A stretch of DNA of 55,425 bases from a virus (Duplodnaviria; Caudoviricetes), in the IMG/VR virus record IMGVR_UViG_3300037420_001739, positions 1 through 55,425 of that record, one strand, 5' to 3'. The notes below the pieces were generated by a model. That model saw only the letters and a program-made list of their open reading frames with translations, was not told the origin of the DNA and ran no database searches. Positions 15,982 to 29,466 of this stretch are shown one piece after another (the first letter of the stretch is position 1; each line of letters starts with the position of its first letter). The translations under genes were made by a program, and so were the position numbers.

Positions 15982-15993
15982 AGCAGATAGTCT

Positions 15994-16658: not shown

Positions 16659-16682
16659 GGTGGTGGATGGTTGGCTTGTTAC

Positions 16683-17045
16683 TTAATAAACGTGCCCGAA
16701 AAAGCCGGTATTCGCATTCACGCCCAGAATGATCAATATCAAAAGGATAATGATCGCAACGATGTCATTTACTTTGAAAGGGATTCTTTCAGAGAAATTA
16801 AGCCATCCCCAAAATGCAGCGCCTGCGAAAAACAGTGTTGCAAATAATGTTTCGCTGCCTCCATGACCAGCTCTGTGAGCCTGTGCAAGCAGATTGTGAC
16901 CAATGCCATAAGAGCTACCGATCAAGATGAACATTAATACGATCCCGAATAGTCCGAATACTACTGTCAGGATCTTGGTCAAAACTGAATCATCGGCATC
17001 CCAATGAAAGACTCTCTGTAGGAAATTGAAAACTGATGTTAACAT
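16683..17045 (-). CDS. Multi-pass membrane protein
   Basis: Three hydrophobic segments. Confidence 0.7.
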   Translation of the reverse strand: MLTSVFNFLQRVFHWDADDSVLTKILTVVFGLFGIVLMFILIGSSYGIGHNLLAQAHRAGHGGSETLFATLFFAGAAFWGWLNFSERIPFKVNDIVAIIILLILIILGVNANTGFFGHVY

Positions 17046-17076
17046 AAAAAGTGTTTTTATAGTGAATAATTAATGA

Positions 17077-17781
17077 CTAGAACCGGATTATCGTACGGGT
17101 AATACCAAAAGAAATCATAGGGACAGGATTCGGAATTTTATCCGTGAATGAAACACCATAGCCTAACTGAACACCAATTGCCCATCTCTTTGGTTTTTCA
17201 TAAATGCGATATGCTTTAATGCCTGAAACTTTTGTATCAGGATTTGCAGTTGACACGTCCAGTTGAATTAAATGCTTGCGATTGAAAATTGATCCTTCAT
17301 TTACTTTCTTCCAAAGGACCGTCACCGTATCGAATGACTGCAGATGCATGTAAGAGCTGTCCCCTATCTGTACATGCGCTTTGTAATAAGGACTGGAAAA
17401 GTTCTGTGCTACATTTCTTTGCACCGGTGGACAATCCTTTTTAGCTGTATCGATCGGAAAATAATCTTCGACTGTTGGCTTTCCTTCCGGACGGATATCG
17501 CTCTGCCCTTCCGTTGTTGCGATAACGTATTCAATAACGTTTTTTGGTTTACTGTTATACACCTTGGCCAGACTATCTATCAGGTGCGCCCGGTCAGCTG
17601 CGAAATAAGAAGGATCTGCCTTCAAGGAAGCAACAATATCTCCTGCATCATTCACCCACTCCAAAGTGTCAACCTGTTCCGAGCCTTCTTGTAGTGAAGC
17701 AGGTGAATGATGCCAGGTAAATAAGATGACTGCTAGCAGCGCGCCTATTATGAGTGTTAATGTGGTTTTGCTGATATACAT
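17077..17781 (-). CDS. Spanin-like protein (possible unimolecular type)
   Basis: N-terminal transmembrane anchor; C-terminal KRWAIGVQLGYG..ISFGITRTIIRF beta-hairpin ending in F. Confidence 0.55.
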   Translation of the reverse strand: MYISKTTLTLIIGALLAVILFTWHHSPASLQEGSEQVDTLEWVNDAGDIVASLKADPSYFAADRAHLIDSLAKVYNSKPKNVIEYVIATTEGQSDIRPEGKPTVEDYFPIDTAKKDCPPVQRNVAQNFSSPYYKAHVQIGDSSYMHLQSFDTVTVLWKKVNEGSIFNRKHLIQLDVSTANPDTKVSGIKAYRIYEKPKRWAIGVQLGYGVSFTDKIPNPVPMISFGITRTIIRF

Positions 17782-17783
17782 TA

Positions 17784-18140
17784 CTAGCCCATTTTAAGAA
17801 TGTCAAATTTTTGTTGTAGCCATTGAATGGCCTTATCCAGACCAAACGACAGGAAAAAGCCGATGCCGATCGCAATAGGAAAACTAAGCGGCTTACCAAA
17901 GATGTCCGGAGAGAAACGAAAGAAAATAAACATCAGCGCGATCGTGGCCAATATCCTCAATAGGTTATCCCAAAGGAGAAATCCCCAACTGAACTTCACT
18001 GGTGTTCGTGTTGACGCAGGATCCCTTTTCCGTGAATGAGCGTATAGCGATAACAATATCGCAATGAAGGAAAAAAAGAACGCTGCCAAATAGTAAGGGA
18101 TAGACAGCTCTCCCAAAATGTATTGCTTAAACTCTTGCAT
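17784..18140 (-). CDS. Putative holin
   Basis: 118 aa with three transmembrane segments, at the start of the lysis cassette. Confidence 0.6.
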   Translation of the reverse strand: MQEFKQYILGELSIPYYLAAFFFSFIAILLSLYAHSRKRDPASTRTPVKFSWGFLLWDNLLRILATIALMFIFFRFSPDIFGKPLSFPIAIGIGFFLSFGLDKAIQWLQQKFDILKMG

Positions 18141-18150
18141 GGTGGATGCT

Positions 18151-18459
18151 TTATTTATGAATAAAAAATTTCTGAAGTAAATCGCTTATGGTCCATCCGG
18201 CCGCGAAGGATGCCCCGACCAAAAAATAAATAACACGGTCTTTCCATCGCTCCAGCTTTGCAACTCTTGCCTTGAGCTGTCGCACATCGCCAACCATGCC
18301 GTTGTCGTTTTTGTCGAATTCATTTCCGGATAGGATGTTGATTATCTTATCCACTTTGCCGTTTAGGTTGCGTAAATCGGCTTTCATTTGTAAGGATTCC
18401 GTTTGCTCCATTGGTGGCCTTGTTTTTGTACCACCTTGTTCGGTGGATTTGGTTATCAT
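18151..18459 (-). CDS. Coiled-coil protein with C-terminal transmembrane segment (XhlA-like, lysis-associated)
   Basis: LKARVAKLERWK coiled coil followed by a hydrophobic tail. Confidence 0.55.
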   Translation of the reverse strand: MITKSTEQGGTKTRPPMEQTESLQMKADLRNLNGKVDKIINILSGNEFDKNDNGMVGDVRQLKARVAKLERWKDRVIYFLVGASFAAGWTISDLLQKFFIHK

Positions 18460-18511: not shown

Positions 18512-21500
18512 TTAAAAAAACAATCTTGTGAACTTCAAAACCTTTTGCTTGATCTTAAAGAATAGTCTATCTGAAGGCGGTGGCGGCGGCGGTGGAAGAG
18601 CAGCGTTCGAATACTCAATGATGATCGGTTTTGCCGAGTAATTGAATGTCACGCTTCCGGTACTTGTAGATGTTGTCTTACTCATTACTGTACTGCCGTT
18701 ATCCTGGAACTGCCTTATGTTATAATTCCCTGCTGGTATATTCAAAGTGATCGTCCCTTTTCTTTCTGCGAAGGCTGTAGTATCATTTACGATAGAAGTA
18801 ATTTCTTCACTCCACAGCGCAATCTTGGTACTATCCGTTGTTGCGAATTTGTATGCGTGAAGCCACGGTGAACCTGTGGCAACGGAATCAGAATAAGTGT
18901 ACGCCGCTACAGTATTGTTATACTGGGCCATGTAGTCACCTTGCGGTGATCTTGTTATGGTATTGGCGTCGCCATCATTTAACTGACGTAATAACCGCAT
19001 GGTGCCGAATTGGGTAGTCGAGTTATTGGAAACGCTCTCCGGCCAATCCTGGAACAAAGGATAATAAGTTGCCCTATCCACCCCATCCACTTCCATGCAA
19101 AACATTCCTCTTACCATCCACATTGCGCCTACGATTTCCCTGGTGTAAGGCCCATAAGCGCCGGCATGAAGCGGTGATCCTACATTCTGATCCCATCCCC
19201 ATTCGGTGATGTATAATTTCGTGTGTGGAATTCTTCGTTGAATCAGGTTAACAAAATCCTGTACGTAGGAACGAATAGATTCCCATGGCAAGCCGCCATT
19301 ATTTCCGTAGCCATATTGTCCACCCGCCGAAGGGTAGATGTGTATATTGACTGCCGTAAAAGGAACATCGATTGTGCCATCGGGTAAATAACCTCTTACC
19401 CTTCTGGCCTCTTCGATTATTCCATAGAGTTGATCAGTAAACTGAGTGGCGAGCCCTCCACAAATAACATCGATTGTCGAATCAGCTTGTTTTGCTCCTG
19501 TATTGGGGAAGGATTTTTTAAAGCCATCATAGGCCATGTTCATCCCGTGGAAAATCGTTTTGCCATTCCAGAAGCCTAGCCAGTTTGTCCACCATCCGTT
19601 AGCTTCGTTAAATGGTTCCACTCCACTGTAAATGCCAGCACCTTTCAGTAGCCTTTGGGCGGGTGATTGTAAGGGATAGTTAGCAACAGCCGTATTCTTC
19701 CCGCCTCTACGGGCATAAACGTTCATGTTCTGCCCTGTTAGAAGGTGAGCAGAATCCAGGTCTCTTCGTGGAAGGTCGTTATCGCCAAAATAAATCGGGT
19801 TTACGCTTTCCTGCGATTTGTAGAAGGTGAGAACATCGCCAACGGAAATAGATAATCCACCCCCAACATTAAAATGTCTTGTTTGTTCCAGTAATGAACT
19901 GGAAAAATATTCTGGTGTTTGTGTGACATTGATTAGCGCCCCACCCTTATATACATACCAAAGCGTGATAAGATATTCGGTAGGTTGAGATACTGCAGAA
20001 ATGTTCATCCAGACTTCACCCCATGATCCATGATTAATAAAGTTGGTAACTGTTCCCCTGATGTACCGGTTCGGGAAGTTGTCGATAACATTCCAACTAT
20101 TTTTCTGTGGCGTCCACTGTCCTGTTATCGCTTTCCAGGTATAGATAGAAGGCTTCCACCTGTGCAGGATACCAAATGCCGAATCAGTAGAGTACCTGTC
20201 CGTTCCCAGTTCTGGCTCAAACCTGAATGAGTTGGATCCATCGGTTACCTCATATCCGTTTTCCCATGTACGCAGGTTCGTGATACCGAGAGATTCTATG
20301 GCGGCTATCTTAGCCGGGTTCATGTGATCATAAGAGTGATCAACAGCCCCAGACATTTGCCCAAGTGGCGCTTTCGCTTTTGGCGGTGCATTGGATGGGT
20401 TGATATAATGTCCCCATACTTCGATCTCAGAACCAAATTGATAGTTTGATGATGAAGAGCGGAAAATAATTTTAGCGATCGTACTTACGGTATCAGGAGA
20501 AGCATAGACGAAATGCTGATTGGCACCACCATGAAAAGTACCTAAGCTAACCTGTGTACTGTTGGTTTTCTCCATGATGATATCGACGGTACAGGTATCA
20601 GAGTTCGCAATGAACATTTTAACCCCTGTTACTCTTGCGCTCCAATCCCACAGGTCAAATACTACTTCGTGCGTGGTATAAATGATCGGTCGTGCTGGTG
20701 AGTAATTAACAAGGGTATCACCATTAACTAATTTATCTGCCCTATCCTGTTGGCTGTTATCCTGCCAGACATATTTCGTAGTGATTGGGATTTTTACACC
20801 TGGTAGTTCGGTAAGGTTTGGATCAGGTGGCGGTGTCGATTGATACTGGTAGAGCCACTCGTATACATTCTTACTCGTAACGTTGTTTACATTCGTTCGG
20901 AAGGCTGTATCAAACGCTATGATACCATCATGCCCAACACCGGGAAGCCTTGTTACAAAAGCCAGTGGTGAAGGCGTAAGTGAATTGTAAATTGTTATTA
21001 GCTGTACGGTTTTTAATGCACCATTGGTAGAGTTGAGTGTATCAGCACTTCCGTAAATAGCATGAAGTTTTACGCGATACCTCTTACCCATAGAGGCAGC
21101 CGAATCCTGTTCCGGTGGTTGGTTAAGAAACCCCGTGAACGAAGTAACATAACATGCGGCTATTCTCTGTGCTGCTTGTGGATTCCATGTACATCCGGAA
21201 ACGGCACCCTCGGCCCCGCCTGAATAACCGGAAACATAAATTCTTGAAGGATCAACCCTGTACGTACTTAATAATCCATTGATAAAGTAATTCCAGACAT
21301 CCTGGTGGTTGTATTGGCCGATGGTTGTATTAAGATCGTACTGAGGACAAGCCACAATAAATTTTACCGTCTTACCAGCTGAAACGCATTTAGGTACTTG
21401 CCCATGGTCGATCAGGTAAGGGAGCGATGCGCTTTTCAACAAAGCATCATTGCGGGTGCTGCTTCCTTCGCCGTGTCCATGAAGAAAAATAAGTATCGGA

Positions 21501-21661
21501 TATTTCTTATTTACCGAATCATTATAGTCATCGGGAAGAGAAACTAATCCTGGAACCGTTTGGTAAAAGAATGGACCATTTGAAAAGGTAGCTTGTTGTA
21601 ATGCCTGACCCTGTGAGAATAGGGTAACAAAAAGGCATAATATCGTAAGAAGCTTTTTCAT
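18512..21661 (-). CDS. Secreted multidomain hydrolase: alpha/beta-hydrolase, beta-sandwich and clan GH-A-like glycosidase
   Basis: Signal MKKLLTILCLFVTLFSQG-Q (TAATG coupling at 21661); FLHGHGE and GYSGG nucleophile elbow; FNEANG and YITEWGWD glutamate motifs; poly-Pro linker near the C-terminus. Confidence 0.75.
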   Translation of the reverse strand: MKKLLTILCLFVTLFSQGQALQQATFSNGPFFYQTVPGLVSLPDDYNDSVNKKYPILIFLHGHGEGSSTRNDALLKSASLPYLIDHGQVPKCVSAGKTVKFIVACPQYDLNTTIGQYNHQDVWNYFINGLLSTYRVDPSRIYVSGYSGGAEGAVSGCTWNPQAAQRIAACYVTSFTGFLNQPPEQDSAASMGKRYRVKLHAIYGSADTLNSTNGALKTVQLITIYNSLTPSPLAFVTRLPGVGHDGIIAFDTAFRTNVNNVTSKNVYEWLYQYQSTPPPDPNLTELPGVKIPITTKYVWQDNSQQDRADKLVNGDTLVNYSPARPIIYTTHEVVFDLWDWSARVTGVKMFIANSDTCTVDIIMEKTNSTQVSLGTFHGGANQHFVYASPDTVSTIAKIIFRSSSSNYQFGSEIEVWGHYINPSNAPPKAKAPLGQMSGAVDHSYDHMNPAKIAAIESLGITNLRTWENGYEVTDGSNSFRFEPELGTDRYSTDSAFGILHRWKPSIYTWKAITGQWTPQKNSWNVIDNFPNRYIRGTVTNFINHGSWGEVWMNISAVSQPTEYLITLWYVYKGGALINVTQTPEYFSSSLLEQTRHFNVGGGLSISVGDVLTFYKSQESVNPIYFGDNDLPRRDLDSAHLLTGQNMNVYARRGGKNTAVANYPLQSPAQRLLKGAGIYSGVEPFNEANGWWTNWLGFWNGKTIFHGMNMAYDGFKKSFPNTGAKQADSTIDVICGGLATQFTDQLYGIIEEARRVRGYLPDGTIDVPFTAVNIHIYPSAGGQYGYGNNGGLPWESIRSYVQDFVNLIQRRIPHTKLYITEWGWDQNVGSPLHAGAYGPYTREIVGAMWMVRGMFCMEVDGVDRATYYPLFQDWPESVSNNSTTQFGTMRLLRQLNDGDANTITRSPQGDYMAQYNNTVAAYTYSDSVATGSPWLHAYKFATTDSTKIALWSEEITSIVNDTTAFAERKGTITLNIPAGNYNIRQFQDNGSTVMSKTTSTSTGSVTFNYSAKPIIIEYSNAALPPPPPPPSDRLFFKIKQKVLKFTRLFF

Positions 21662-22329
21662 TAGTTCGATAGTATTTGAATGTAAAGAGAGGTAAGGTGA
21701 ACCCATGGGTTACCACTTACCCAGTGAGCAGTTATGTTGATTTCGCCGAGTGATGTAGTAGTAACCTGCAGAACATCCAAAGCAGGATCCTCGTAAGGAG
21801 AACCGGCACACGTACCTTGGTTGCCTGATGTATTTCTATTGGGTGAGGTTATCCCGTTAGCGGTGACATTGACGATCGCTGACCAGTAATAGAAGTCGTT
21901 GAAATGGAAATAAAGCTTAACCTGCCTGTTAGCGGGTAAGCCTGTTAGCTTGAATGTTCCACCATCATTGAATCTCCATCCCATTCCGGTCACATACTGT
22001 TTGCACCATACGTTATCAGAAGCCGGATCCAATCCACCATCGGGAGCAGTCGATGCTGACTGTAATGCACCCGTATTGACAACAAGGTTTACATTGCTTG
22101 CCGTTCCTGTTGTATCCTTCAGATTATTCCTGGTGAAAGGAAGTGTGAGCGGATAATTGACACTTTGGATTTTGGGATAAAGAAGTTCGTCGTGGTATTC
22201 ATTCAACAGATTCAAATGAATTGCCTGAACAACTGATGTCGGGATGCTGCTAACTTTCGGCATCAGTATTTTATATTGGGCCTGCGTAGTCAGAGAAAAG
22301 AAAAGTAATATCGTTAAGATGAACCTCAT
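21661..22329 (-). CDS. Secreted beta-rich protein
   Basis: Signal MRFILTILLFFSLTTQA-Q. Confidence 0.75.
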   Translation of the reverse strand: MRFILTILLFFSLTTQAQYKILMPKVSSIPTSVVQAIHLNLLNEYHDELLYPKIQSVNYPLTLPFTRNNLKDTTGTASNVNLVVNTGALQSASTAPDGGLDPASDNVWCKQYVTGMGWRFNDGGTFKLTGLPANRQVKLYFHFNDFYYWSAIVNVTANGITSPNRNTSGNQGTCAGSPYEDPALDVLQVTTTSLGEINITAHWVSGNPWVHLTSLYIQILSN

Positions 22330-22580
22330 TTTTTAGGTTGTTCTTTTTTGAATATTTGACCATGCTTAAACATCCACTCCACAAACTGATTTAATTCTTT
22401 TCCGGTAGCTGGCTTACCATTGATATTTACATTGCTTTCCATTAGTATGTTGGCAATGGTTTGCATATCCTGCACCGAAAAAACAAATACTGTGTCCATT
22501 GTTGGCTGAACAGAATCCTTCTTTTGCGCTGAAGAATTAAGAGCGAATCCGATTGAAAGCAGTGCGATAATTTTCTTCAT
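22326..22580 (-). CDS. Small secreted protein (possible fibre chaperone)
   Basis: Signal MKKIIALLSIGFALNSSA-Q. Confidence 0.7.
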   Translation of the reverse strand: MKKIIALLSIGFALNSSAQKKDSVQPTMDTVFVFSVQDMQTIANILMESNVNINGKPATGKELNQFVEWMFKHGQIFKKEQPKK

Positions 22581-22589
22581 GTTTTTTTA

Positions 22590-23678
22590 TTAAAAGGTGT
22601 ATGATATAGTGTAATTACCCATAAATCCATAGCCAGTAAGGTTATTTGCATTTCCCTTGTCAGCCCTTACTTTAATTCTGTATGTGCCAGCATTCAAAGT
22701 CTGTGTAATTGTGGCGGCAAGCGTTGTGGTGTTTGAACTGGATGCGATAATTGAACCCGTTGAACTAATGATATCAATAGCAGCATCCAGCGTGGCGCTA
22801 GTTCCACTTGTCCCGATGTATGACGGCGTTACTCCAATAGTCACACTTTGTGTAGATGGAATTTCTATTTTGTAGTAATCCGAATCGTTTACCCCGATAA
22901 ATCCATTGAATACCTGGTTTTTTCTTAAATACTTGGCCGTATTGAAGGTTGTTCCAGCATCCCCTAATCGTGCGCCACCAAGGGTAAGAAATGTAGATGT
23001 TCCAATAGCACCCGTATTGTATAATTGTCCCGATGATATAATTGCTATATCGTCCTGCTGACTTGAAAATTCATTGGCACCACGGGATAGGGTAACCATA
23101 TTTTTTGAGTACAAAGTCCCCGTTGAAGTCATCAGCGGAATCCATCCTGTCTCACCCGAACCTCCCCCATTGGAATTATAATGACTCAACCCTAATTGAT
23201 GACCAAGTTCGTGGGCGGCCACTCTTGCCCTATTGCTTCCCCCAAGGCCATCAAATACCCATGACGGTGTATCATCTGCCTTCGCCATAGAGCCGGTAAA
23301 AGAGACGCCGCCTACACAAATAGTTACTCCGCAGTACCACTGGTAAGAAGGGGTAATTATTATCCATGCCCTTCTGCCTGGCTTGGCGAGATTGTAAAGA
23401 GTGCTGTCGCGGGTAACAACGATATTAAATGGTTGGTAAATCTGTCTTCCGAATTCAACCACACTGTCCATTGCTGAAGTATTGCCGTTAATAGCACTTG
23501 CGGCAGCATTAATTGTGCTTCCACTCCATGACGCATTGTTGACGGTCGCACCAGTGAAGTCATACCATGCACAAACACCTCCATTAACGATCATGGTAGA
23601 ATCCTTCTGCCTCTGTGTTTGTCCCAAACAGGAAAGTGTGCTGATTGAAGCAATGAGTATGATAAAAAGTCTCTTCAT
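22590..23678 (-). CDS. Secreted metzincin metalloprotease with C-terminal PPC-like domain
   Basis: Signal MKRLFIILIASISTLSCLG-Q; HELGHQLGLSH, Met-turn WIPLM, DSDYYKI...LNAGTYRIKV. Confidence 0.85.
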   Translation of the reverse strand: MKRLFIILIASISTLSCLGQTQRQKDSTMIVNGGVCAWYDFTGATVNNASWSGSTINAAASAINGNTSAMDSVVEFGRQIYQPFNIVVTRDSTLYNLAKPGRRAWIIITPSYQWYCGVTICVGGVSFTGSMAKADDTPSWVFDGLGGSNRARVAAHELGHQLGLSHYNSNGGGSGETGWIPLMTSTGTLYSKNMVTLSRGANEFSSQQDDIAIISSGQLYNTGAIGTSTFLTLGGARLGDAGTTFNTAKYLRKNQVFNGFIGVNDSDYYKIEIPSTQSVTIGVTPSYIGTSGTSATLDAAIDIISSTGSIIASSSNTTTLAATITQTLNAGTYRIKVRADKGNANNLTGYGFMGNYTISYTF

Positions 23679-23684
23679 AAAAAA

Positions 23685-24128
23685 TTAATTATCCAGTAAG
23701 ATTGTTTTACCCCTGTCCCTGAATTTGGTGTAATAGCCTGCCCAAATAGCATCAGCGATGTTTGTCCAGTAGATCATATTTGATTTACCAGAGATAGCCG
23801 AAGTAATAGCCGCATACCGTGATGCTATCTCTCCTGCGGGCGCATTCTTAACACCGTTGTACATTGCCAGAACAATCTTTCCAGGTATTGAATCGATTGT
23901 TACATTGGTTGTCCATGATGCAGGATTGACGGTTCTTATCTTGTCCCTAATCCTTCTTACTTGGTAAGATGTGGCACTGTCCTCGTTAGTGTCTCCGTAT
24001 TTTCCTACAAGCCATGCCCAATCCTGCGCTTGCAGTTGAAGATTTCTTACCGATACCGTATCAATAGTTTGACAGTTGGCTTTCACCGAAAAAAGAAGAA
24101 TGATAGTTATTGCGCTGAGTGTTTTCAT
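23685..24128 (-). CDS. Secreted hypothetical protein
   Basis: Signal MKTLSAITIILLFSVKANC-Q; likely start at 24128. Confidence 0.7.
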   Translation of the reverse strand: MKTLSAITIILLFSVKANCQTIDTVSVRNLQLQAQDWAWLVGKYGDTNEDSATSYQVRRIRDKIRTVNPASWTTNVTIDSIPGKIVLAMYNGVKNAPAGEIASRYAAITSAISGKSNMIYWTNIADAIWAGYYTKFRDRGKTILLDN

Positions 24129-24138
24129 ACTTGTTTTT

Positions 24139-25107
24139 TTATGCTGCACGATATCTGAGTTTTGAACCTATATAAACTTTTGCTGTTCCACTGGTTGCCT
24201 TTGCCACCTTTATGCTTATTGTTGGCGATCCTGCCGAACCTGTTTTTATAAATCCTTTGATAGTAATTTGCCCATCACCGGCAACAAGTACACATGCTGC
24301 TGATGCTGTATTGAGAGCATTTGAGCCGATAGCCATACCGGTTGCTGCCGCACTGGTAGCCGTTCCTGTAAAAACACCTATCTGTCCGGATCCTGTTCCC
24401 GATTGCTGAACGCCGATAGTTATTCCTGCCGTAGAGGAAGAGTTGACATAAAGCACCGCTTCAAACTCGTATAGCGTTGCTGTACTCAAAGTCCCTGTAA
24501 CCAAACCAGTAACATCAGTCAGTGAAGTGTTGGTAGTTGTAAAATCAGATCCGGAAACTTTGGTAACTGTCCATCCACCTTCATTTGTTGATATAGATTG
24601 CTTTGCTGCTAAATCAGTTGTGAGGTTTGTAATCTGACTTTCATTTAATGTGATATCAGAGCCTACTAATTTGGATGCAGCTATTGAACCGGCAAGCATT
24701 GCATTGGTTACCTTACCACTTCCGATTGTGGTCGTTATTGCTGTGGTTCCGCTTCCTGTAATGTCCCCTGATAATGTAATAGTCTGATTGCTTATTAAAT
24801 AACTTCCAATAGGCTGATACGTCAAAGCAGCATCCGTGATAGTTAAATAAGCGCTGTTGTCATAAGTAACCGTTGTCCCACTCAGTTTTGCAAAACCTGT
24901 CCCACTTAACTGAGTTTGATATGTTGTGTTGTCGTAGCTTATAGTGGTGCCGCTAACCTTTACGAAGCCAGTTCCATTCAACAGACTACATCCGCCACCT
25001 ATTAATGTGTTGACCTCACCCCTAGTAAGGTTGGAATTATCTGTTAACCTTCTTTGACTAAAGCAAAGGGTTGGAAACAGCATGATGAATAATAGTTTTA
25101 AGACCAT
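24139..25107 (-). CDS. Fibre-like protein with signal peptide
   Basis: Signal MVLKLLFIMLFPTLCFS-Q; tandem LxGTGFxKxSGTTxxYDNxxY repeats; ITLSGDITGSGTTAITTTI and VTNAMLAGSIAASKL fibre-type motifs. Confidence 0.7.
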   Translation of the reverse strand: MVLKLLFIMLFPTLCFSQRRLTDNSNLTRGEVNTLIGGGCSLLNGTGFVKVSGTTISYDNTTYQTQLSGTGFAKLSGTTVTYDNSAYLTITDAALTYQPIGSYLISNQTITLSGDITGSGTTAITTTIGSGKVTNAMLAGSIAASKLVGSDITLNESQITNLTTDLAAKQSISTNEGGWTVTKVSGSDFTTTNTSLTDVTGLVTGTLSTATLYEFEAVLYVNSSSTAGITIGVQQSGTGSGQIGVFTGTATSAAATGMAIGSNALNTASAACVLVAGDGQITIKGFIKTGSAGSPTISIKVAKATSGTAKVYIGSKLRYRAA

Positions 25108-25108
25108 A

Positions 25109-28100
25109 TTATTGGTATTTGATTTTGTAAGTCGCATTCCAATTCACAGTCGTTGAGGCTTCACCCGTTACTCTTATCCTTAATGTGCCACTACTCGCAT
25201 CAACCGTCCATGTTGCTGTTGTGAATCCCCTTAGATAATCTGCCACTTCATCAACTACCTCGTCTACCGTCACCGTTCCAGATGTACTATGCCAGTGAAT
25301 TGTTTTTTTACCGGCCAATGATTTTGAATTATCCGATTTTGAAGCCACCATGTCAACAACCAAAGTGCCGCTTGCATCACTTGGACAGGTGTATGTCGTC
25401 AATGTGGTTGCTGTAGCGTTTGTCGTTTGTGTTGAAAGTGTAAGAGCGGCATCGTTAACATAAGCATTCCAATACAGGTAGCTGTTTACAAGAATCGCCG
25501 ATTCACCAGGTGCAATAGTGAACGATGAAACTAATGAGTTGGTGTAAATACTTTCACTGGTGTTCGCTGAAATGGTAAGCGTTGCCGTTCCCCTGTTTTT
25601 AATTAAGAAAACCTCGTTGCTGCTGCTTGCTCTTGTTGGAAGTGTAAATGTTTGTGGGCTGCTACCGTTAAATACAGCTTCGTTTTCTCCATTCAATGTA
25701 TAGCTGGTAGCAGAAGCATTGATGGTGGCAAAATATCCAGCCCATGTAGTTGCAGTAGATGATGGAGTTGGAATGTTTAAAACACCGGTACCAGCATTGT
25801 ATGTTGCGGCGCCAGATGTTCCAGTAGTGGTTAATGATAATGCAGGTACCTTTTCAATATTACCTGATGTTGTATTATAAACCGCCATTGAATAACCGCC
25901 AGATGAGTAGGTTGCGGGTGTTACAGGAATATTTACCGTTCCAGCATAAGTAACTTTAAACATTGCATGATCCCATGAACCCGTACCACGGTTTGCATAC
26001 GTTTTAGCCCGCACCACAAAATCGCCATAAGTATCAAAACCGGCTGCACTACCCTGAGAGAATAAATCAATAAAGTCAGTGCCATCATCAAACGTTGCAA
26101 AAAGATTTCCGCTACTCTTATAAAGATGAAAAGTATTTATGGGTGAAGCCGTACCTATCCCCAGTTTATTATTGGCAACGTCAAGTACATTGTTTGCTCC
26201 AAAATAAATCTTTCCTTTTGTTGCATTTGATGTAGAGAATAAATAAAGATTACCACCCGAAGCTGTTGAACCGTAAATAGTATCTACAATTCCATATCCA
26301 TCAATATTAAAATTGGCAGATGTCTGTTGAGAAGTACCGTTTTTTATGTAAGACGATGAAAGGTCTGGAATGTCGCCTGCAACAAGCGAATGATTATGCC
26401 ATTTGTTATCCGATGTTTGGTATTGTGCAAACTGACCGTTAGATGGAGATGAAACGTTTACGTCTGTAAGTCCTGCAAATGTTGACGAACCACCACCACC
26501 GCCACCGCTACCGAACCAGCTTGCCATTTGCACCACTTTACCAGTAGAAGAAATTCCAAAAGGTTTGTAAGTTGAAGTATCAGAGGATGAGGAAAGCTGC
26601 TTGAAAAAAATGTCTTTTGCGCTCAAAACAATCTGAGATAAAGAACTATCTGCATCCATGGTGAATAAAGCCGTATCGATACCGTAGGTTGTTCTGAAAA
26701 TATTTCCAAATGACGAATAGGCTACTTCATTTTTATTTGACGTATAAGGATTGATACCCTCATACTCAAAGGCCATTCCGCCGCTATAACCAACCTTTAA
26801 TTGACCCCAGTAGGTTCCTAATGTATTGCCGGAAAACTTAAATGGATAGTTATTATCAACAGCGATTGAATCAATTCTTTTGATGTACCCTGCCTGATCT
26901 ACCCCAACTAATCTGTCAGATGTTCCTGCAAATGCTCCCAGTGAATCCATCTTGAATTTGGGTAGTGCAATTTCAAAGGTCTGTACAGCATTGTAGATAG
27001 CCGGTTCAAAGACAGCTAATGAATCATTCATTCGGAATTTCATCCCAATATTCCTATCGTAATTATCTGCAAGCAGAGTAATTGCATCTGGAGCCCAGGT
27101 AACTTCCGCATCCTTCCCAAATCCAGCGTTAGCAACATAACTGTCAACCTGTAACCCAGCTGCACTATCGAATTTTAGTTCGAAGTAGTTATTCATTGCT
27201 GAATCCTGAAAATCAATCTTTCTTTTTTCAGCGTAAATCTTTCTGGTAGCATCGTCAATGTAGCCGTTAGTAGTGTAAAAGTTGGGCTGTGCAGCAAAGA
27301 AGTTTGATACGGCCTGAGTGGTTGGATATTTGGTATTGTTGATCGTACTGAAATCGGTTGCCTTATTCGATAAGGATTCGGCGCCAATAAGGGTAAGTAT
27401 CTGCGAAGGCGTTCGCCTTACAAATATTCTGCTGCTATCAATTAAGAAATCATTGTTCTGTGGGTTGTTATCAAGCATCACCGCTCCATCGGTATGATAA
27501 TAGGTATTAGCAATGGTATCCTTTATTATTACCTTTTTATTGATCGGTGAAGCATAGCCGCCATCTGAAAAGCTGCCACCTGCAACATCTCCTGGAACCC
27601 ATGCCGAACCGCTCCATTTAGGTACTTGTCCTGTTGTGGCACCATTTTGAGCCAATTGGTTTAGGTTCAGATTTCCGCCAAGCGTAGAAAGCAGTACGTT
27701 TCCAGGTACGATGTCAAAATTATACCTGCGGGTTGTCGTGCTATGATTAGGTGTAACAGATATCCTTGCGGATGTAGAGAACAGGCTATCGCTTTTGAAT
27801 GCGATGGTGCTATCATTATATTGAAAGGCTACTGTATCTGCTCCTCCTGCATTGGTTAATATGTGATGCTTAAAAACAGCATCGTAAAACATTGTGGTAT
27901 CAACTATTGTTGGAAACAAACTCCCGCTATTATTGGAGAAAAGGATTTTGTTGAGACTGGGAACGGAAGAAACGCCGCTGCCGCCAGCACCAACCGGATG
28001 AGCAACCCACTTCTTATCAATGACACTCCATACCCATGTAGTATCTCCTTTTTTATTCGAGATAATGAAAGTGTACGCAGATAAAGAAGCTGGAACGGGA

Positions 28101-28186
28101 AATGTATCTATTCCAATAGCTGTTTTGTATTGAGCGTTTGAAAGAAATGAAGCCAGTAAAAAAACAAATATGATGATCCGTTTCAT
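25109..28186 (-). CDS. Long fibre-like protein with signal peptide
   Basis: Signal MKRIIIFVFLLASFLSNA-Q; GQVPKWSGSAWVP, LTDVNVSSPSNGQ..KWHN, LGIGTASP and LTTTGTSGAATYNAGTGVLNIP fibre-type motifs. Confidence 0.7.
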   Translation of the reverse strand: MKRIIIFVFLLASFLSNAQYKTAIGIDTFPVPASLSAYTFIISNKKGDTTWVWSVIDKKWVAHPVGAGGSGVSSVPSLNKILFSNNSGSLFPTIVDTTMFYDAVFKHHILTNAGGADTVAFQYNDSTIAFKSDSLFSTSARISVTPNHSTTTRRYNFDIVPGNVLLSTLGGNLNLNQLAQNGATTGQVPKWSGSAWVPGDVAGGSFSDGGYASPINKKVIIKDTIANTYYHTDGAVMLDNNPQNNDFLIDSSRIFVRRTPSQILTLIGAESLSNKATDFSTINNTKYPTTQAVSNFFAAQPNFYTTNGYIDDATRKIYAEKRKIDFQDSAMNNYFELKFDSAAGLQVDSYVANAGFGKDAEVTWAPDAITLLADNYDRNIGMKFRMNDSLAVFEPAIYNAVQTFEIALPKFKMDSLGAFAGTSDRLVGVDQAGYIKRIDSIAVDNNYPFKFSGNTLGTYWGQLKVGYSGGMAFEYEGINPYTSNKNEVAYSSFGNIFRTTYGIDTALFTMDADSSLSQIVLSAKDIFFKQLSSSSDTSTYKPFGISSTGKVVQMASWFGSGGGGGGSSTFAGLTDVNVSSPSNGQFAQYQTSDNKWHNHSLVAGDIPDLSSSYIKNGTSQQTSANFNIDGYGIVDTIYGSTASGGNLYLFSTSNATKGKIYFGANNVLDVANNKLGIGTASPINTFHLYKSSGNLFATFDDGTDFIDLFSQGSAAGFDTYGDFVVRAKTYANRGTGSWDHAMFKVTYAGTVNIPVTPATYSSGGYSMAVYNTTSGNIEKVPALSLTTTGTSGAATYNAGTGVLNIPTPSSTATTWAGYFATINASATSYTLNGENEAVFNGSSPQTFTLPTRASSSNEVFLIKNRGTATLTISANTSESIYTNSLVSSFTIAPGESAILVNSYLYWNAYVNDAALTLSTQTTNATATTLTTYTCPSDASGTLVVDMVASKSDNSKSLAGKKTIHWHSTSGTVTVDEVVDEVADYLRGFTTATWTVDASSGTLRIRVTGEASTTVNWNATYKIKYQ

Positions 28187-28188
28187 AA

Positions 28189-29466
28189 TTAAACTTTGAT
28201 TGTCCAGTAAACACCTATGTTCACCGGCCTTGTTTCAGTTCCCTGTTTCGGGCTGATGTCAAATACATGGAGAAGGTCAAATTCCTGTCCTGTAGAATTC
28301 ACACTATCAACCGAAGAGGCGATCGTACCTGTCCCCGTCACTTTAACTCCCTTCACACCGGAAGAAATATTTAAAGATTCGTCCTGGAAGCCACCCGGAT
28401 TATTAAAAGGTCTCCCCGTATCGCCGGTTTTAATTCCACGCAAAAAACCGTTGGTTAAATCAGGAAGTTGGATGTATGTCGAATCAACATCCACCCAACA
28501 ACCTTTATATTTTTGAGGGTCGGAATCGTAGGTAGCTTTATCGATAAAGGAAGCGCCTAGACTTTGCGCCACTTCAAGAGCCCTTCTGTATTTTGCTTTT
28601 TCTATTTGCTGCCCGTTGCAATTGAGTTCATTCAGGCCGACTTTGTAAGAGGCCCGTGGATAGGCCACAAGCTCATTATACATTTTTGCAAAATCCTGAT
28701 TGATCACATAATAGCCATCGTCTGAGCGGTATAACCATAATACCTCACCCGCTCTCATGTAAAGAGCACCATAGGAAGTATTATTCATGTATATATTTTG
28801 CCCGGTCGATGTCTGAATTTTATGCTCCACCGTGTTGTTGATCATGGCCTCAATGACGATAATAGTATTATCCGGCACATCACCTACATCAGCCAGGGTT
28901 ATTGTAAGCTGGGTAGAACCGCCTCTTAACTGAAGCAGTTTATTGACATGATTCACTACATCATAGGTAATGTTCGTTGAGACCGAAACCGAACCAATGA
29001 TTAAAGGCTTCACATCATTTGAGGTGACAGGAGCGCCGCCAACCAGGGAATATAGCATTAGCTCGTAACGAGTCCCCTCCACTAAAACTTCACCAGTTTT
29101 TAAGAGCTTAAAGCCTCCCCCATTCAGAATTTGGTATTCGCTTGTTTTGTAAATAACTCCGTTGGGTGCACGAAGCTTGAAATTCTTTCCTGCCAGCTCT
29201 GGGATGGATGCTGTATCACTTCCGGCAGCACTTTCAGGAACATCATAAATGTAGGTATCGCCATTAATAACAGGGGTGAACGTTCCCGCACCAACACCGT
29301 TCACAATATCAACTAAGTCTTGAACAGTAAATTTCAGTGTCTTGTTCACGTCTGGCTTGAATAGCAGCATTTCATCCGAATTGGCCAGTGGGCCATAGGA
29401 CAAATAATCCGGCAATTCATGAACCGTCGTTGTTTGTATATCCTGATCGAGTGTAAGAGTGGGCAT
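28189..29466 (-). CDS. Tail fibre/collar-domain protein
   Basis: LPDLTNGFLRG..GGFQDE..ETRPVNIGVYWTIKV tail-collar-type C-terminus; no signal peptide. Confidence 0.75.
   Translation of the reverse strand: MPTLTLDQDIQTTTVHELPDYLSYGPLANSDEMLLFKPDVNKTLKFTVQDLVDIVNGVGAGTFTPVINGDTYIYDVPESAAGSDTASIPELAGKNFKLRAPNGVIYKTSEYQILNGGGFKLLKTGEVLVEGTRYELMLYSLVGGAPVTSNDVKPLIIGSVSVSTNITYDVVNHVNKLLQLRGGSTQLTITLADVGDVPDNTIIVIEAMINNTVEHKIQTSTGQNIYMNNTSYGALYMRAGEVLWLYRSDDGYYVINQDFAKMYNELVAYPRASYKVGLNELNCNGQQIEKAKYRRALEVAQSLGASFIDKATYDSDPQKYKGCWVDVDSTYIQLPDLTNGFLRGIKTGDTGRPFNNPGGFQDESLNISSGVKGVKVTGTGTIASSVDSVNSTGQEFDLLHVFDISPKQGTETRPVNIGVYWTIKV

What the first reader, a model, noticed from the sequence alone, without database searches (positions are those of the whole stretch)
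18512..28186. Seven consecutive late genes with Sec/Q-rule signal peptides, including tail-fibre-like proteins
Seen: every gene between the collar-domain fibre and the lysis cassette begins with a basic-hydrophobic leader ending just before Gln (SNA-Q, CFS-Q, ANC-Q, CLG-Q, SSA-Q, TQA-Q, SQG-Q). The genes are tightly coupled, and the two upstream ones carry typical phage fibre repeats. Known: Bacteroidota SPI substrates often start with Gln (pyroglutamate), and tailed virions assemble in the cytoplasm. Inference: this ~9.7-kb module is exported to the periplasm and either joins virions at lysis or is released as a fibre-plus-enzyme complex. This would be an unusual morphogenesis route.
Basis: partly seen in the sequence, partly recalled or inferred. 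Interest (0 to 1): 0.8.

Follow-up and report, generated by a model that had tools for sequence, protein, structure and literature searches.

The report
Sec-exported fibre-and-enzyme module in a phage
A soil Bacteroidota phage, like its close relatives, puts export signals on the variable fibre-like proteins and sugar-cutting enzymes encoded right after its tail genes, so they probably mature outside the cytoplasm where virions are built.

Summary
All seven minus-strand genes between the collar-domain fibre (28189-29466) and the lysis region carry a basic-hydrophobic leader ending just before Gln. No other gene in the 55-kb phage does. The genes are packed, with overlaps of up to 4 nt and gaps of up to 10 nt.

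The pattern holds across a clade. In 14 of 14 informative related viral contigs with a short tail hub plus a collar-fibre homologue, the next large gene has a leader followed by Gln. So do 3 contigs with a different adaptor. In 42 relatives with other (mostly long) hubs, 0 of 150 downstream ORFs do.

The exported proteins vary greatly between phages. They are enriched about 2-fold for the Bacteroidota periplasmic O-glycosylation motif, and none matches a T9SS sorting domain above cut-off. The first one has a conserved N-terminal domain of about 60 aa, often with a cysteine pair.

- g1 and g2 are fibre-like.
- g6 is CBM-like.
- g7 is a CE1-like esterase plus a GH-like enzyme.
- g4 is a zincin and is more probably a lipoprotein.

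Best reading: late Sec export, maturation in the periplasm, and release by the adjacent lysis cassette. Whether the fibres then dock on virions is unresolved (about 0.3). No paper describing this turned up in four full-text searches.

The parts
31100..31603 (-). Distal-tail (Dit-like) protein with no leader. Given as context for the tail-tip operon.
   Evidence: phrog_6305 'tail protein', E 4.6e-17. No leader.
29539..31098 (-). Short tail hub (Tal-like, 519 aa) with no leader. It lacks the long C-terminal fibre extension that distant relatives have.
   Evidence: phrog_19846, E 4.4e-106. Pfam Prophage_tail 47.6 bits, over cut-off. Homologues are 40-67% identical in metagenomes and in Chitinophagaceae genomes as named by their sources. 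Relatives with other hubs mostly carry hubs of 931-1991 aa.
28189..29466 (-). Collar-domain fibre or adaptor (425 aa) with no leader. It is the conserved partner gene that precedes the exported module.
   Evidence: phrog_327, E 2.9e-4. 16 homologues at 29-42% identity lie directly after the hub in related viral contigs. 8 of 15 aligned members hit Pfam Collar, but the window's copy does not.
25109..28186 (-). g1: exported fibre-like protein (1025 aa) with leader ...SNA|Q. It has a small N-terminal domain, mosaic fibre segments, a receptor-binding-type knob (~810-905) and an extra C-terminal domain (918-1025).
   Evidence: 1098 relatives at E<=1e-3 in 1.84 billion representatives. They match g1 domain by domain, which shows it is a mosaic. 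No Pfam, PHROG or PDB sequence hit. 13 O-glycosylation sequons against 5.4 expected.
24139..25137 (-). g2: exported short fibre with a C-terminal head. Leader ...CFS|Q. The likely start is ATG 25107.
   Evidence: A 72-aa fibre segment is 56% identical to the 1219-aa leader+Gln protein of L036. The nearest ESM-Atlas clusters are all viral, one of them carrying DUF5907/Mtd_N; this is a lead only.
23685..24149 (-). g3: small exported protein of unknown fold. Leader ...ANC|Q. The likely start is ATG 24128.
   Evidence: No family hit.
22590..23678 (-). g4: zincin-type metalloprotease (HELGH) plus a PPC-like beta domain. The leader reads either ...CLG|Q (SPI) or ..LS|C (lipoprotein). Lipoprotein is more likely.
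   Evidence: Pfam Peptidase_M10 23.4 bits (cut-off 24) and PPC 23.3 bits (cut-off 25.9). T9SS tail 18.3 bits against cut-off 23, and not at the C-terminal end. Homologues in L083 and L041 have lipoprotein-type leaders.
22326..22580 (-). g5: 84-aa lysine-rich exported protein. Leader ...SSA|Q.
   Evidence: Similar small leader+Gln proteins recur in L038, L054, L055 and L083, but the alignment is too weak to call a family.
21661..22329 (-). g6: exported beta-sandwich protein, probably carbohydrate-binding (malectin/CBM-like). Leader ...TQA|Q.
   Evidence: ESM-Atlas: the nearest clusters are mostly viral, and the structural neighbours are beta-sandwich appendages of GDSL esterases and malectin-like clusters; this is a lead only.
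18512..21706 (-). g7: exported enzyme with leader ...SQG|Q and likely start ATG 21661. It comprises a CE1/PHB-depolymerase-like esterase (~35-290, GYSGG), a beta-sandwich (~300-445), a GH-A-clan-like barrel with a C-terminal beta-sandwich, a poly-Pro linker and a basic tail.
   Evidence: NCBIfam esterase_phb E 1.2e-4, below cut-off. The A1 profile hits PDB esterases 4q82, 1jjf and 3wyd. The AF2 model has mean pLDDT 59. Foldseek hits CE1 esterases (TM by target 0.7) and GH39/GH30 enzymes. 31 homologues, 28 flagged leader+Gln. 12 sequons against 3.0 expected.
15274..18459 (-). Lysis region directly downstream. It holds small membrane proteins (18151-18459, 17784-18140, 16683-17045, 16230-16658), a signal-anchor protein (17077-17781), a lipoprotein (15994-16233) and a GH46-fold endolysin candidate (15274-15981).
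   Evidence: Pfam Glyco_hydro_46, E 1.5e-19. Leaders and anchors. The homologue of 17784-18140 sits after the exported module in L038. The only strong minus-strand terminator-like sites are at 14826-14805 and 14476-14455.

Best explanation
The window is a complete temperate siphovirus of a soil bacterium. The host is probably a member of the Chitinophagaceae. The seven genes form a variable, exported host-surface module that is a fixed part of the late operon in this phage lineage.

**Shown by the sequence**
- Each protein starts with a Sec-type leader.
- Six leaders fit signal peptidase I cleavage before Gln. This is the Bacteroidota Q-rule, after which the new N-terminus is cyclised to pyroglutamate.
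- g4 fits a lipoprotein better.
- The genes are translationally coupled to the tail genes upstream and run into the lysis genes downstream.
- None has a T9SS sorting domain above cut-off.

**Inferred**
- The proteins are made late in infection.
- They cross the inner membrane unfolded, then fold and trimerise in the periplasm.
- There they receive disulfides and probably O-glycans.
- With no route across the outer membrane, they accumulate in the periplasm until the lysis cassette encoded next door opens the envelope.
- After release they act on host-surface glycans. g1 and g2 act as fibre-like binders and g6 as a sugar-binding module. g7 acts as an esterase plus glycanase. g4 acts as a membrane-tethered protease.

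**My call on their final place**
- The enzymes and small proteins work free, as egress or receptor-destroying factors.
- The fibre g1 has a conserved N-terminal domain and has roughly even odds of docking onto virions once cytoplasm and periplasm mix at lysis.

The confidence given is for the export-and-release pathway, not for the final fate.
For: **Leaders**
- 7 of 7 consecutive genes are flagged, and none of the phage's other genes has a leader followed by Gln.
- The AF2 model of the g1 N-terminus gives a confident helix for residues 3-18 (pLDDT 81-90).

**Leaders kept in relatives**
- 28 of 31 g7 homologues are flagged. The three misses are one truncated protein, one with its start cut short and one with a later start.
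- 63 of 152 g1 relatives are flagged, 51 of them with Gln.

**Clade conservation**
- 16 related viral contigs have a collar-fibre homologue after a short hub.
- In all 14 that extend further, the next large gene is leader+Gln. In two of these a ~130-aa leaderless ORF lies between.
- Three contigs with a ~300-aa adaptor show the same arrangement.
- In the 25 short-hub loci, 39 of 163 downstream ORFs are leader+Gln, against 2 of 193 upstream.
- In the 42 other loci, 0 of 466 ORFs are leader+Gln.

**Signatures of life outside the cytoplasm**
- The sequon D-[ST]-[AILVMT] (motif as in the abstract of PMC8550257) occurs 34 times against 12.7 expected in the module.
- It occurs 41 times against 32.7 expected in the other minus-strand ORFs of the phage.
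- In relatives it occurs 176 times against 81.7 expected in leader+Gln proteins, and 204 against 205.8 in structural proteins. The reversed motif shows almost no difference.
- In the N-terminal domain, 7 of 17 sequences have exactly two Cys, 10 have none, and none has an odd number.

**No route across the outer membrane**
- No T9SS tail reaches cut-off in g1-g7.
- 0 of 34 relatives' leader+Gln proteins scanned matched a T9SS tail at E<=1e-3. These were 34 of the 39 found; five short or truncated ones were left out.
- By contrast, a g7-core homologue (P0009) and an esterase-domain homologue (P0030) do carry a T9SS type A tail above cut-off.
- The ~830-aa g7-core homologues lie in ordinary bacterial neighbourhoods.

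**Late expression**
- There is no room for promoters between the genes.
- No TAnnTTTG motif lies in front of any of the seven genes; the only minus-strand copy in the region is inside g1.
- There is no strong minus-strand terminator between 28186 and 14826.

**Glycan-targeting content**
- g7 has an esterase fold plus a GH fold.
- Relatives' modules carry a polysaccharide lyase, a GDSL esterase, a beta-helix, PKD/Ig domains and RCC1-like propellers.
Against: - No SignalP or other trained predictor was available. The leader calls rest on my own rule and on reading the sequences.
- Nothing shows that the proteins are made, cleaved, glycosylated or released.
- Timing of expression is inferred from gene packing only. 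An internal promoter cannot be excluded, and the sigma-70 scan is not informative for Bacteroidota.
- Sequon enrichment also exists, more weakly, in ordinary bacterial leader-bearing proteins (46 against 33.4 expected; leaderless 14 against 19.5). It marks an extracytoplasmic location, not glycosylation itself.
- The g7 model is poor (mean pLDDT 59; the catalytic barrel is mostly below 50), so the GH assignment is only at fold level.
- A free fibre-like binder released at lysis would compete with the virions for receptors. That fits a purely 'free factor' role badly.
- Five related contigs carry leaderless fibres at the same position (L041, L043, L044, L045, L099; four of these are near-duplicates). 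Export is therefore not obligatory for this kind of fibre.
Confidence: 0.7

Rival explanations
1. Periplasmic arm of virion morphogenesis. This is a more specific branch of the best explanation. The exported fibres g1 and g2, and perhaps the enzymes, are true virion parts. They mature in the periplasm. They dock onto finished but fibre-poor virions when the holin lets cytoplasm and periplasm mix, or just after lysis. The conserved N-terminal domain behind the leader would be the docking piece.
For: - Otherwise hypervariable first leader+Gln proteins share a ~60-aa N-terminal domain with a nearly invariant Trp (16 of 17). This is the pattern expected for an anchor to a conserved partner.
- The same kind of C-terminal knob ends both the leader-bearing fibre of L059 and the leaderless fibres at the same position in L041 and L043. 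It also ends ordinary leaderless fibres among the g1 relatives.
- The module stands where distant relatives carry a long fibre fused to the hub.
- The leader+Gln fibre co-occurs with the collar-fibre homologue in 14 of 14 informative loci.
- The mosaic turnover is typical of receptor-binding proteins.
- g2's nearest Atlas clusters are all viral.
Against: - I know of no precedent for a Sec-exported part of a tailed virion, and four literature searches found none.
- Only the first gene of each module has the conserved N-terminal domain.
- g7 starts its catalytic domain right after the leader. It has ordinary secreted bacterial homologues.
- The leaderless collar fibre could be the only receptor-binding protein the virion needs.
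- Co-occurrence across related contigs is not phylogenetically independent.
- The N-terminal domain shows no profile similarity to the collar fibre's own N-terminus.
Confidence: 0.3
2. Lysogenic-conversion cargo (morons, or auxiliary metabolic genes). The block is expressed from the prophage in healthy lysogens. It gives the host extra periplasmic or secreted adhesins and polysaccharide-degrading enzymes, or it modifies the cell surface against superinfection.
For: - The phage is temperate (integrase 11622-12824, phrog_1, E 5.5e-23).
- The block sits at the end of the late operon, where morons often sit.
- The g7 core has chromosomal homologues among other leader-bearing proteins.
- Porphyromonas prophages carry five Q-rule leader genes of unknown function that their authors read as host-modifying (PMC10367356, passages read).
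Against: - No intergenic space is longer than 10 nt inside the block.
- There is no Bacteroidota -7 motif before any of the seven genes and no terminator-like site that isolates the block.
- The block takes up 9.7 of 55.4 kb.
- A block of the same kind keeps the same position in at least 17 related contigs while its content changes completely. That looks like a required slot, not optional cargo.
- Without an outer-membrane route, fibre-like binders would sit idle in the periplasm of a living cell.
- There are no PADLOC defence hits.
Confidence: 0.13
3. The proteins are not exported. The hydrophobic N-termini are not working signal peptides, or the real starts lie behind them. The proteins would then be ordinary cytoplasmic tail fibres and tail-associated enzymes.
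For: - Gene callers behind the ESM Atlas started g6 at residue 23, just after the leader.
- Leaderless fibres with the same knob exist in sister phages.
- No trained predictor was run.
Against: - For g1, g3, g4, g5 and g7 there is no in-frame Met just after the leader. The Atlas start of g2 (residue 11) keeps its leader.
- Starts at the leaders give near-perfect coupling to the upstream stop codons.
- The leader is conserved in form across homologues that share no other N-terminal sequence.
- Sequon enrichment and paired cysteines fit export.
- Bacterial homologues of g7 with a T9SS tail must pass Sec with the same kind of leader.
Confidence: 0.04

Closest known systems
Bacteroidota Q-rule substrates of Sec / signal peptidase I (PMC5837995 and PMC10653852; I saw only the abstracts in the search listing)
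   Same: The leader architecture is the same, with Gln as the first mature residue. Cyclisation to pyroglutamate by the host's glutaminyl cyclase is expected.
   Different: Those are host proteins. Here the substrates are late phage genes, two of them built like tail fibres.
Q-rule leader genes of unknown function in Porphyromonas gingivalis 'Nixviridae' prophages (PMC10367356; passages read). That paper's supplementary tables were not available to me and may hold gene positions that bear on this comparison.
   Same: These are phage-encoded proteins predicted to use the host Sec/SPI pathway and to expose an N-terminal Gln. The hub of this phage is distantly related to tail proteins of P. gingivalis phages (27-28% identity).
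   Different: Five genes of unknown function, read as host-modifying. From what I read they are not described as fibre-like, contiguous or part of the tail operon. The one Porphyromonas phage region I inspected (L003) has no leader on the genes after its hub.
Receptor-binding modules of tailed phages, with a conserved N-terminal anchor and a swappable distal part; also tailspike depolymerases that occur free in lysates (recalled, not from a call)
   Same: The module sits at the end of the tail operon. Turnover is mosaic. The content is fibre repeats, knobs, esterase, lyase and glycanase. The first protein has a conserved N-terminal piece.
   Different: Known examples fold in the cytoplasm and carry no Sec leader. 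Here the anchor-like domain sits behind a cleavable leader.
Holin/endopeptidase-dependent release of the chitinolytic machinery of Serratia marcescens (PMC4259817; only the listing and abstract seen)
   Same: The logic is the same: degradative enzymes are let out of the cell by a lysis-type cassette encoded beside them.
   Different: That is a bacterial secretion system in living populations. Here the cassette is the phage's own lysis system and the cargo includes fibre-like proteins.
T9SS cargo proteins of Bacteroidota
   Same: Both have a Sec leader with Gln. Some g7-family members (P0009, P0030) are such cargo, with a type A tail above cut-off.
   Different: The phage proteins lack the C-terminal sorting domain. 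g7 and most of its close homologues end instead in a short basic tail.
Mycobacteriophage LysB, an esterase that completes lysis by attacking the outer envelope layer (recalled, not from a call)
   Same: An alpha/beta-hydrolase esterase is encoded next to the lysis genes and would act on an outer cell layer at the end of infection.
   Different: LysB has no Sec leader and acts on mycolyl-arabinogalactan. g7 is a multidomain carbohydrate esterase plus glycanase in a Gram-negative host.

Membership tests
Sec/SPI signal peptide obeying the Bacteroidota Q-rule | Basic n-region, uncharged hydrophobic h-region of about 8-15 residues, and small residues at -3/-1 | tested here: met
   7 of 7 by my own heuristic and by reading the sequences. 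No trained predictor (SignalP) was available.
Sec/SPI signal peptide obeying the Bacteroidota Q-rule | Gln as the first residue after the cleavage site | tested here: met
   A Gln follows a small-x-small site in all 7. For g4 a lipobox reading competes.
Sec/SPI signal peptide obeying the Bacteroidota Q-rule | Actual cleavage and pyroglutamate formation | not testable with these tools
   Needs N-terminal proteomics.
SPII lipoprotein | Lipobox with Cys at +1 after a small residue | tested here: inconclusive
   g4 has ..LS|C, and its homologues in L083 and L041 have ..FA|C and ..LS|C. The other six have no Cys preceded by a small residue.
T9SS cargo | C-terminal sorting domain (type A or B) at the very end of the protein | tested here: not met
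   The only hits are in g4. They score 17.9 bits (Pfam cut-off 27) and 18.3 bits (NCBIfam cut-off 23). They cover residues 274-343 (Pfam) and 293-343 (NCBIfam) of 362 and overlap the PPC domain. 0 of 34 leader+Gln proteins of relatives matched.
Phage tail fibre / receptor-binding protein | Sequence kinship with fibre proteins of viruses | tested here: met
   g1 has 1098 relatives, which include leaderless fibre-type proteins and repeat-rich fibres. g2 shares a fibre segment with L036 and has viral nearest clusters. However, there are no Pfam or PHROG hits and no match in 50,697 phage records.
Phage tail fibre / receptor-binding protein | Physical presence on the virion | not testable with these tools
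   Needs virion proteomics or cryo-EM.
Moron / lysogenic-conversion gene | Own promoter and terminator, and expression in the lysogen | tested here: not met
   Gaps between the genes are at most 10 nt. There is no TAnnTTTG before any of the seven genes and no isolating terminator. Expression itself is not testable here.
CE1 / PHB-depolymerase-like alpha/beta-hydrolase esterase (g7 N-domain) | Alpha/beta-hydrolase fold with a G-x-S-x-G nucleophile elbow | tested here: met
   GYSGG is in the sequence. The profile hits 4q82, 1jjf and 3wyd at E 2e-5 to 6e-5. Foldseek TM by target is 0.7. NCBIfam scores are far below the family cut-offs, so this is similarity of fold, not membership of those named families.
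Clan GH-A glycoside hydrolase (g7 core) | (beta/alpha)8 barrel with catalytic glutamates, plus a C-terminal beta-sandwich as in GH30/GH39 | tested here: inconclusive
   Foldseek hits GH39 and GH30 enzymes at E about 1e-7 with TM by target 0.32-0.41. They come from a model whose barrel region is mostly below pLDDT 50. Catalytic residues were not mapped.
Zincin metalloprotease (g4) | HExxH zinc site within an M10/M12-like fold | tested here: inconclusive
   HELGH is present. Peptidase_M10 scores 23.4 bits against a cut-off of 24, and Reprolysin_3 scores 21.9 against 22.4.

The most novel reading that the evidence does not exclude
Tail fibres of this clade of Chitinophagaceae siphoviruses are made by a split route. 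Capsid, tail, hub and collar fibre assemble in the cytoplasm. The variable receptor-binding fibres, and perhaps the depolymerase, are exported by Sec and capped with pyroglutamate. They are disulfide-bonded and O-glycosylated by the host's periplasmic machinery. They clip onto the virion through a conserved N-terminal domain only when the holin opens the inner membrane. That would be the first tailed phage with a periplasm-matured, host-glycosylated virion component. It would also explain how such phages can recruit secreted host enzymes directly as tail accessories.
Probability: 0.3. Interest if true: 0.92.

Novelty: new variant of a known kind. Interest (0 to 1): 0.74.

Why it matters
Tailed phages are taken to build every virion part in the cytoplasm. 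Their Sec-dependent proteins are known as lysis, exclusion or conversion factors. Here the most variable, fibre-like, glycan-targeting genes of the tail operon carry export signals, and this holds across a whole lineage of soil phages.

If the fibres join the virion, the result adds a new compartment and host-made modifications (pyroglutamate, disulfides, O-glycans) to phage morphogenesis. It would also change how receptor-binding proteins of Bacteroidota phages should be predicted and expressed.

If they stay free, the result defines a conserved phage 'secretome' that is released by lysis and tuned to the host surface. That is relevant to phage spread in soil biofilms and to how viral glycoside hydrolases in soil metagenomes are read.

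Either way it gives a simple marker for finding such modules: leader plus Gln directly after a collar-fibre homologue. Several are prophages recorded in isolate-derived viral contigs (L039, L047, L051, L064), which makes the question testable at the bench.

Tried and rejected
**Complex and structure predictions**
- Complex prediction of the collar fibre (A6) with g1 residues 19-112 (A5) gave no verdict: score 0.00, partner fold uncertain. It says nothing either way.
- The AF2 model of the first 150 residues of g1 has mean pLDDT 55. Only the leader helix and a three-stranded sheet are confident. It is too poor for a fold search, so none was run.
- Profile-profile comparison of the N-terminal domain alignment with the collar-fibre alignment gave no similarity (probability 0.2). 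My idea that the domain is a copy of the collar fibre's anchor is dropped.

**Searches for close relatives that found nothing**
- g1 in viral contigs
- the g7 alignment in viral contigs and in genome contigs
- the g1 C-terminal domain alignments in viral contigs and in genome contigs
- the collar fibre and the portal as single proteins in viral contigs
- g1, g2 and g6 against 50,697 phage records

**Distant hub relatives found with the single hub protein**
- 20 loci, mostly gut-type. Their downstream ORFs have no credible leader+Gln proteins.
- The Elizabethkingia and Porphyromonas phage regions L002 and L003 have none either.

**Sequence and family scans**
- PDB sequence searches with g7 and g1 gave nothing.
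- PADLOC gave nothing.
- The sigma-70 promoter scan found 42 sites against 43.9 expected and is not suited to Bacteroidota.
- The two-box Bacteroidota promoter pattern has 2 matches, both on the plus strand near 9.9-10.5 kb.

**Sequencing runs**
- No RNA holder is listed. The DNA is held by 11 soil and rhizosphere runs.

**Small proteins and g7 tails**
- Alignment of g5 with four small leader+Gln proteins of relatives is too weak to call a family.
- By eye, the ~830-aa g7 homologues (P0023-P0027) end in a T9SS-like tail, but NCBIfam does not confirm it. I therefore claim a T9SS tail only for P0009 and P0030.

- One alignment was too diverse for a scan.

**Contig linkage**
- Contig-length matching between hub homologues and g1/g7 homologues did not link them.
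- The one match is P0003 (a g7-like protein) and P0034 (a g1-like protein), which share a longest-contig length of 40316. This hints that they lie on one contig.

Full report
**What the window is**

The window is one complete IMG/VR virus record of 55,425 bases. CheckV estimates it as 100% complete. It encodes:
- an HK97-type major head protein, a portal and an integrase
- a Dit-like tail protein, a short tail hub and a fibre
- no tRNA

Hub homologues at 40-67% identity come from metagenomes and from genomes whose sources name them as Chitinophagaceae. The named genera are Danxiaibacter, Flavihumibacter, Flavitalea, Chitinophaga and Hanamia. More distant hub relatives are phages of Elizabethkingia, Riemerella, Porphyromonas and Bacteroides. 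The DNA of the finding is held by 11 soil and rhizosphere metagenome runs. The phage is therefore a temperate siphovirus of a soil Bacteroidota host, most likely a member of the Chitinophagaceae.

**The observation**

On the minus strand the late operon runs in this order:
- a 1350-aa ORF in the tape-measure position (31616-35668)
- the Dit-like protein (31100-31603)
- the hub (29539-31098)
- the collar-type fibre (28189-29466)
- seven ORFs (g1-g7, 28186 down to 18512)
- small membrane proteins, a lipoprotein and a GH46-fold endolysin candidate (18459 down to 15274)

I had no SignalP, so I wrote a simple rule-based detector. Applied to 81 ORFs of the window, it flags all seven. Apart from them it flags only lipoprotein-like or anchor-like N-termini, and none of those has a +1 Gln.

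For g2, g3 and g7 the likely start is an internal Met. This gives a normal leader and places the start codon 1 nt after, 10 nt after, or overlapping by 1 nt the upstream stop codon. All junctions inside the block lie between a 4-nt overlap and a 10-nt gap.

One correction: g4's leader also reads as a lipobox. Its two homologues in related phages have lipoprotein-type leaders. I therefore count six SPI/Gln substrates and one probable lipoprotein.

**The pattern is a clade feature, not a quirk of one genome**

Single-protein searches found no close relative in IMG/VR. A profile of 21 hub homologues (A4) then brought in 67 viral loci. I called ORFs in them and applied the same detector.

- Sixteen loci have a homologue of the collar fibre (29-42% identity, no leader) directly after a short hub of 512-630 aa.
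- Two of these end inside that gene. In all 14 others the next large gene carries a leader followed by Gln. In L040 and L050 a ~130-aa leaderless ORF lies between.
- Most are followed by one to three further leader+Gln genes before the lysis genes begin.
- Three more loci (L054, L059, L067) have a different ~300-aa adaptor and show the same arrangement.
- Five loci have another 441-aa adaptor followed by leaderless fibres (L041, L043, L044, L045, L099; the last four are near-duplicates).

Counted over the 25 short-hub loci, 39 of 163 ORFs downstream of the hub are leader+Gln, against 2 of 193 upstream. In the 42 other loci, most of which have hubs of 931-1991 aa with a fused fibre, 0 of 466 ORFs are leader+Gln. 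The 20 loci found earlier with the hub alone have no credible case. Neither do two annotated phage regions.

The content of the slot turns over almost completely. BLAST of g1-g7 against all ORFs of the 67 loci finds only short segment matches for g1, g2 and g7, and two homologues of g4.

**What the proteins are**

- **g1 (1025 aa)** is a mosaic of widespread fibre segments. An exhaustive profile-free search found 1098 relatives, most matching only one part of it. I screened 152 proteins: the 150 listed there plus two. Of these, 63 are flagged as leader-bearing and 51 have Gln. The rest include ordinary leaderless fibre-type proteins and free-standing ~135-aa copies of g1's last domain.
- **g2** is a short fibre with a compact C-terminal head. 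Its nearest ESM-Atlas clusters are all viral, which is a lead only.
- **g6** looks like a malectin/CBM-type beta-sandwich, also a lead only.
- **g7** has three parts:
  - A CE1/PHB-depolymerase-like esterase domain with a GYSGG elbow.
  - A beta-sandwich.
  - A core whose low-confidence model resembles GH39/GH30 enzymes.
- **g7 homologues**: 28 of its 31 homologues are flagged leader+Gln.
  - The ~830-aa core-only forms lie among ordinary bacterial genes such as kinases, regulators and peptidases.
  - One core homologue (P0009) and one esterase-domain homologue (P0030) carry a T9SS type A tail above cut-off.
- **g4** is a zincin-like protease with a PPC-type domain, just under the Pfam cut-offs.
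- **g3 and g5** have no recognisable family.
- **Relatives' modules**: in 34 leader+Gln proteins of relatives, Pfam finds a polysaccharide lyase, a GDSL esterase, a beta-helix, PKD/Ig-type domains and RCC1-like propellers. It finds no T9SS tail. These were 34 of the 39 found; five short or truncated ones were left out.

The slot therefore holds glycan-binding fibres and glycan- or protein-cutting enzymes. This is the usual repertoire of phage receptor-binding and depolymerase modules, and also of Bacteroidota secretomes.

**Independent signs that the proteins really leave the cytoplasm**

The Bacteroidota general O-glycosylation system acts outside the cytoplasm on the motif D-(S/T)-(A/I/L/V/M/T). 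I took the motif from the abstract of PMC8550257.

| Set | Observed | Expected from composition |
|---|---|---|
| g1-g7 of this phage | 34 | 12.7 |
| Other minus-strand ORFs of this phage | 41 | 32.7 |
| Leader+Gln proteins in 17 related loci | 176 | 81.7 |
| Structural proteins in the same loci | 204 | 205.8 |
| Leader-bearing proteins in bacterial loci | 46 | 33.4 |
| Leaderless proteins in bacterial loci | 14 | 19.5 |

- The reversed motif barely differs between the sets: 0.46 against 0.39 per 100 aa.
- The bacterial-loci sample is small, and its contrast is weaker but in the same direction.

Second, the first leader+Gln protein of each module shares a ~60-aa domain right after the cleavage site. 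In it, 7 of 17 sequences have exactly two cysteines, 10 have none and none has an odd number. This is what a disulfide formed in the periplasm would give.

Third, the AF2 model of g1's N-terminus gives a confident helix for residues 3-18.

**Timing and release**

- There is no room for promoters inside the block.
- The Bacteroidota -7 motif TAnnTTTG is rare in this genome (26 copies against about 53 expected). Its only minus-strand copy in the region lies inside g1, not before any gene.
- The only strong minus-strand terminator-like sites are at 14.8 and 14.5 kb, after the lysis region.
- In relatives the module is likewise sandwiched between the conserved collar fibre and conserved small membrane proteins of the lysis region.

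The simplest reading is co-transcription with tail and lysis genes late in infection. With no recognised T9SS tail and, g4 aside, no lipid anchor, the proteins should stay in the periplasm until the cassette next door opens the envelope. The logic resembles the holin/endopeptidase-dependent release of chitinases in Serratia (PMC4259817; only listing and abstract seen).

**The open question: free or on the virion**

Arguments for docking on virions:
- The conserved N-terminal domain sits in front of otherwise hypervariable fibres.
- The same kind of C-terminal knob is found on leader-bearing fibres and on leaderless fibres at the same genomic position in sister phages (L059 against L041 and L043).
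- The module stands where distant relatives have a hub-fused fibre.
- It co-occurs strictly with the collar fibre.

Arguments for free action:
- I know of no precedent for an exported virion part.
- Only one protein per module has the conserved domain.
- g7 starts its catalytic domain straight after the leader and has ordinary secreted bacterial homologues.
- The leaderless collar fibre may be all the virion needs.

My tests did not decide it. The complex prediction of collar fibre with the g1 N-terminal domain gave no verdict. The N-terminal domain shows no profile similarity to the collar fibre's own N-terminus.

I put about 0.7 on the export-and-release pathway. Within it I give roughly even odds that the fibre g1 docks on virions, and lower odds for the enzymes. 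Overall I put about 0.3 on a true periplasmic arm of virion assembly.

**Comparison with what is known**

The Q-rule itself is established (PMC5837995 and PMC10653852; abstracts seen in the listing). Phage genes that obey it have been noted once. Five genes of unknown function in Porphyromonas gingivalis prophages were read as host-modifying (PMC10367356; passages read; its supplementary tables were not available to me).

Four full-text searches found no paper describing Sec-leader-bearing tail-fibre-like proteins in a tailed phage. They combined signal peptide, tail fibre, virion, periplasm, prophage, Bacteroidetes, Flavobacterium phage and Chitinophaga. This covers only the held open-access library.

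I therefore rate the finding as a new variant of a known kind, namely phage-encoded Sec substrates. It would become categorically new if virion docking is shown.

**Limits**

- Leader calls rest on my own heuristic and on greedy ORF calling.
- Relatives are metagenomic or prophage contigs without expression data.
- Related loci are not phylogenetically independent.
- The g7 and N-terminal-domain models are of low confidence.
- The host assignment rests on names that sources gave to hub homologues.

Noticed in passing
window 18512-18580 (C-terminus of g7); proteins P0001-P0022, P0028, P0029 and P0031: g7 and most of its close homologues end in a Pro/Gly-rich linker followed by a 10-20-aa strongly basic, aromatic-rich tail. 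About 20 of the 31 do by eye. A few family members end instead in a T9SS-type tail (P0009). A similar poly-Pro plus basic tail ends the 524-aa leader+Gln enzyme of L055. It could be an unrecognised sorting, membrane-binding or docking signal.
   Followed up: partly
window 35722-36198 (+): A 158-aa lipoprotein-like ORF lies on the opposite strand, between the 1350-aa tape-measure-position ORF and the upstream tail genes. It has no Pfam or PADLOC hit. It is the best candidate in this genome for a classical moron or superinfection-exclusion lipoprotein.
   Followed up: partly
window 15274-15981 (-): The endolysin candidate has a GH46 (chitosanase-family) fold (Pfam E 1.5e-19). None of the usual lysozyme or amidase families was found. 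No PHROG family matches it.
   Followed up: partly
whole window: The Bacteroidota -7 promoter motif TAnnTTTG is depleted. There are 26 copies against about 53 expected, and all 100 shuffles had at least 26. Only 4 copies lie on the gene-coding minus strand.
   Followed up: no
L040:8019-8411 and L050:13100-13486: A ~130-aa leaderless protein sits between the collar fibre and the first exported fibre in two related contigs. By eye it carries a short stretch that resembles the conserved N-terminal domain of the exported fibres. This was not tested.
   Followed up: no
window 22590-23678; L083:18813-19616; L041:15173-15886: A zincin-like protease with a lipoprotein-type leader recurs near the end of the tail/lysis region. 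It also occurs in L041, whose fibres have no leader. It may belong to the lysis or egress machinery and not to the variable module.
   Followed up: partly
window 25112-25486 (last domain of g1); proteins P0057-P0070, P0093, P0094, P0157 and P0164: The last ~107 residues of g1 also exist as free-standing ~125-147-aa leaderless proteins in metagenomes (32-46% identity). No copy was found in IMG/VR or in GTDB species genomes with the patterns used.
   Followed up: partly
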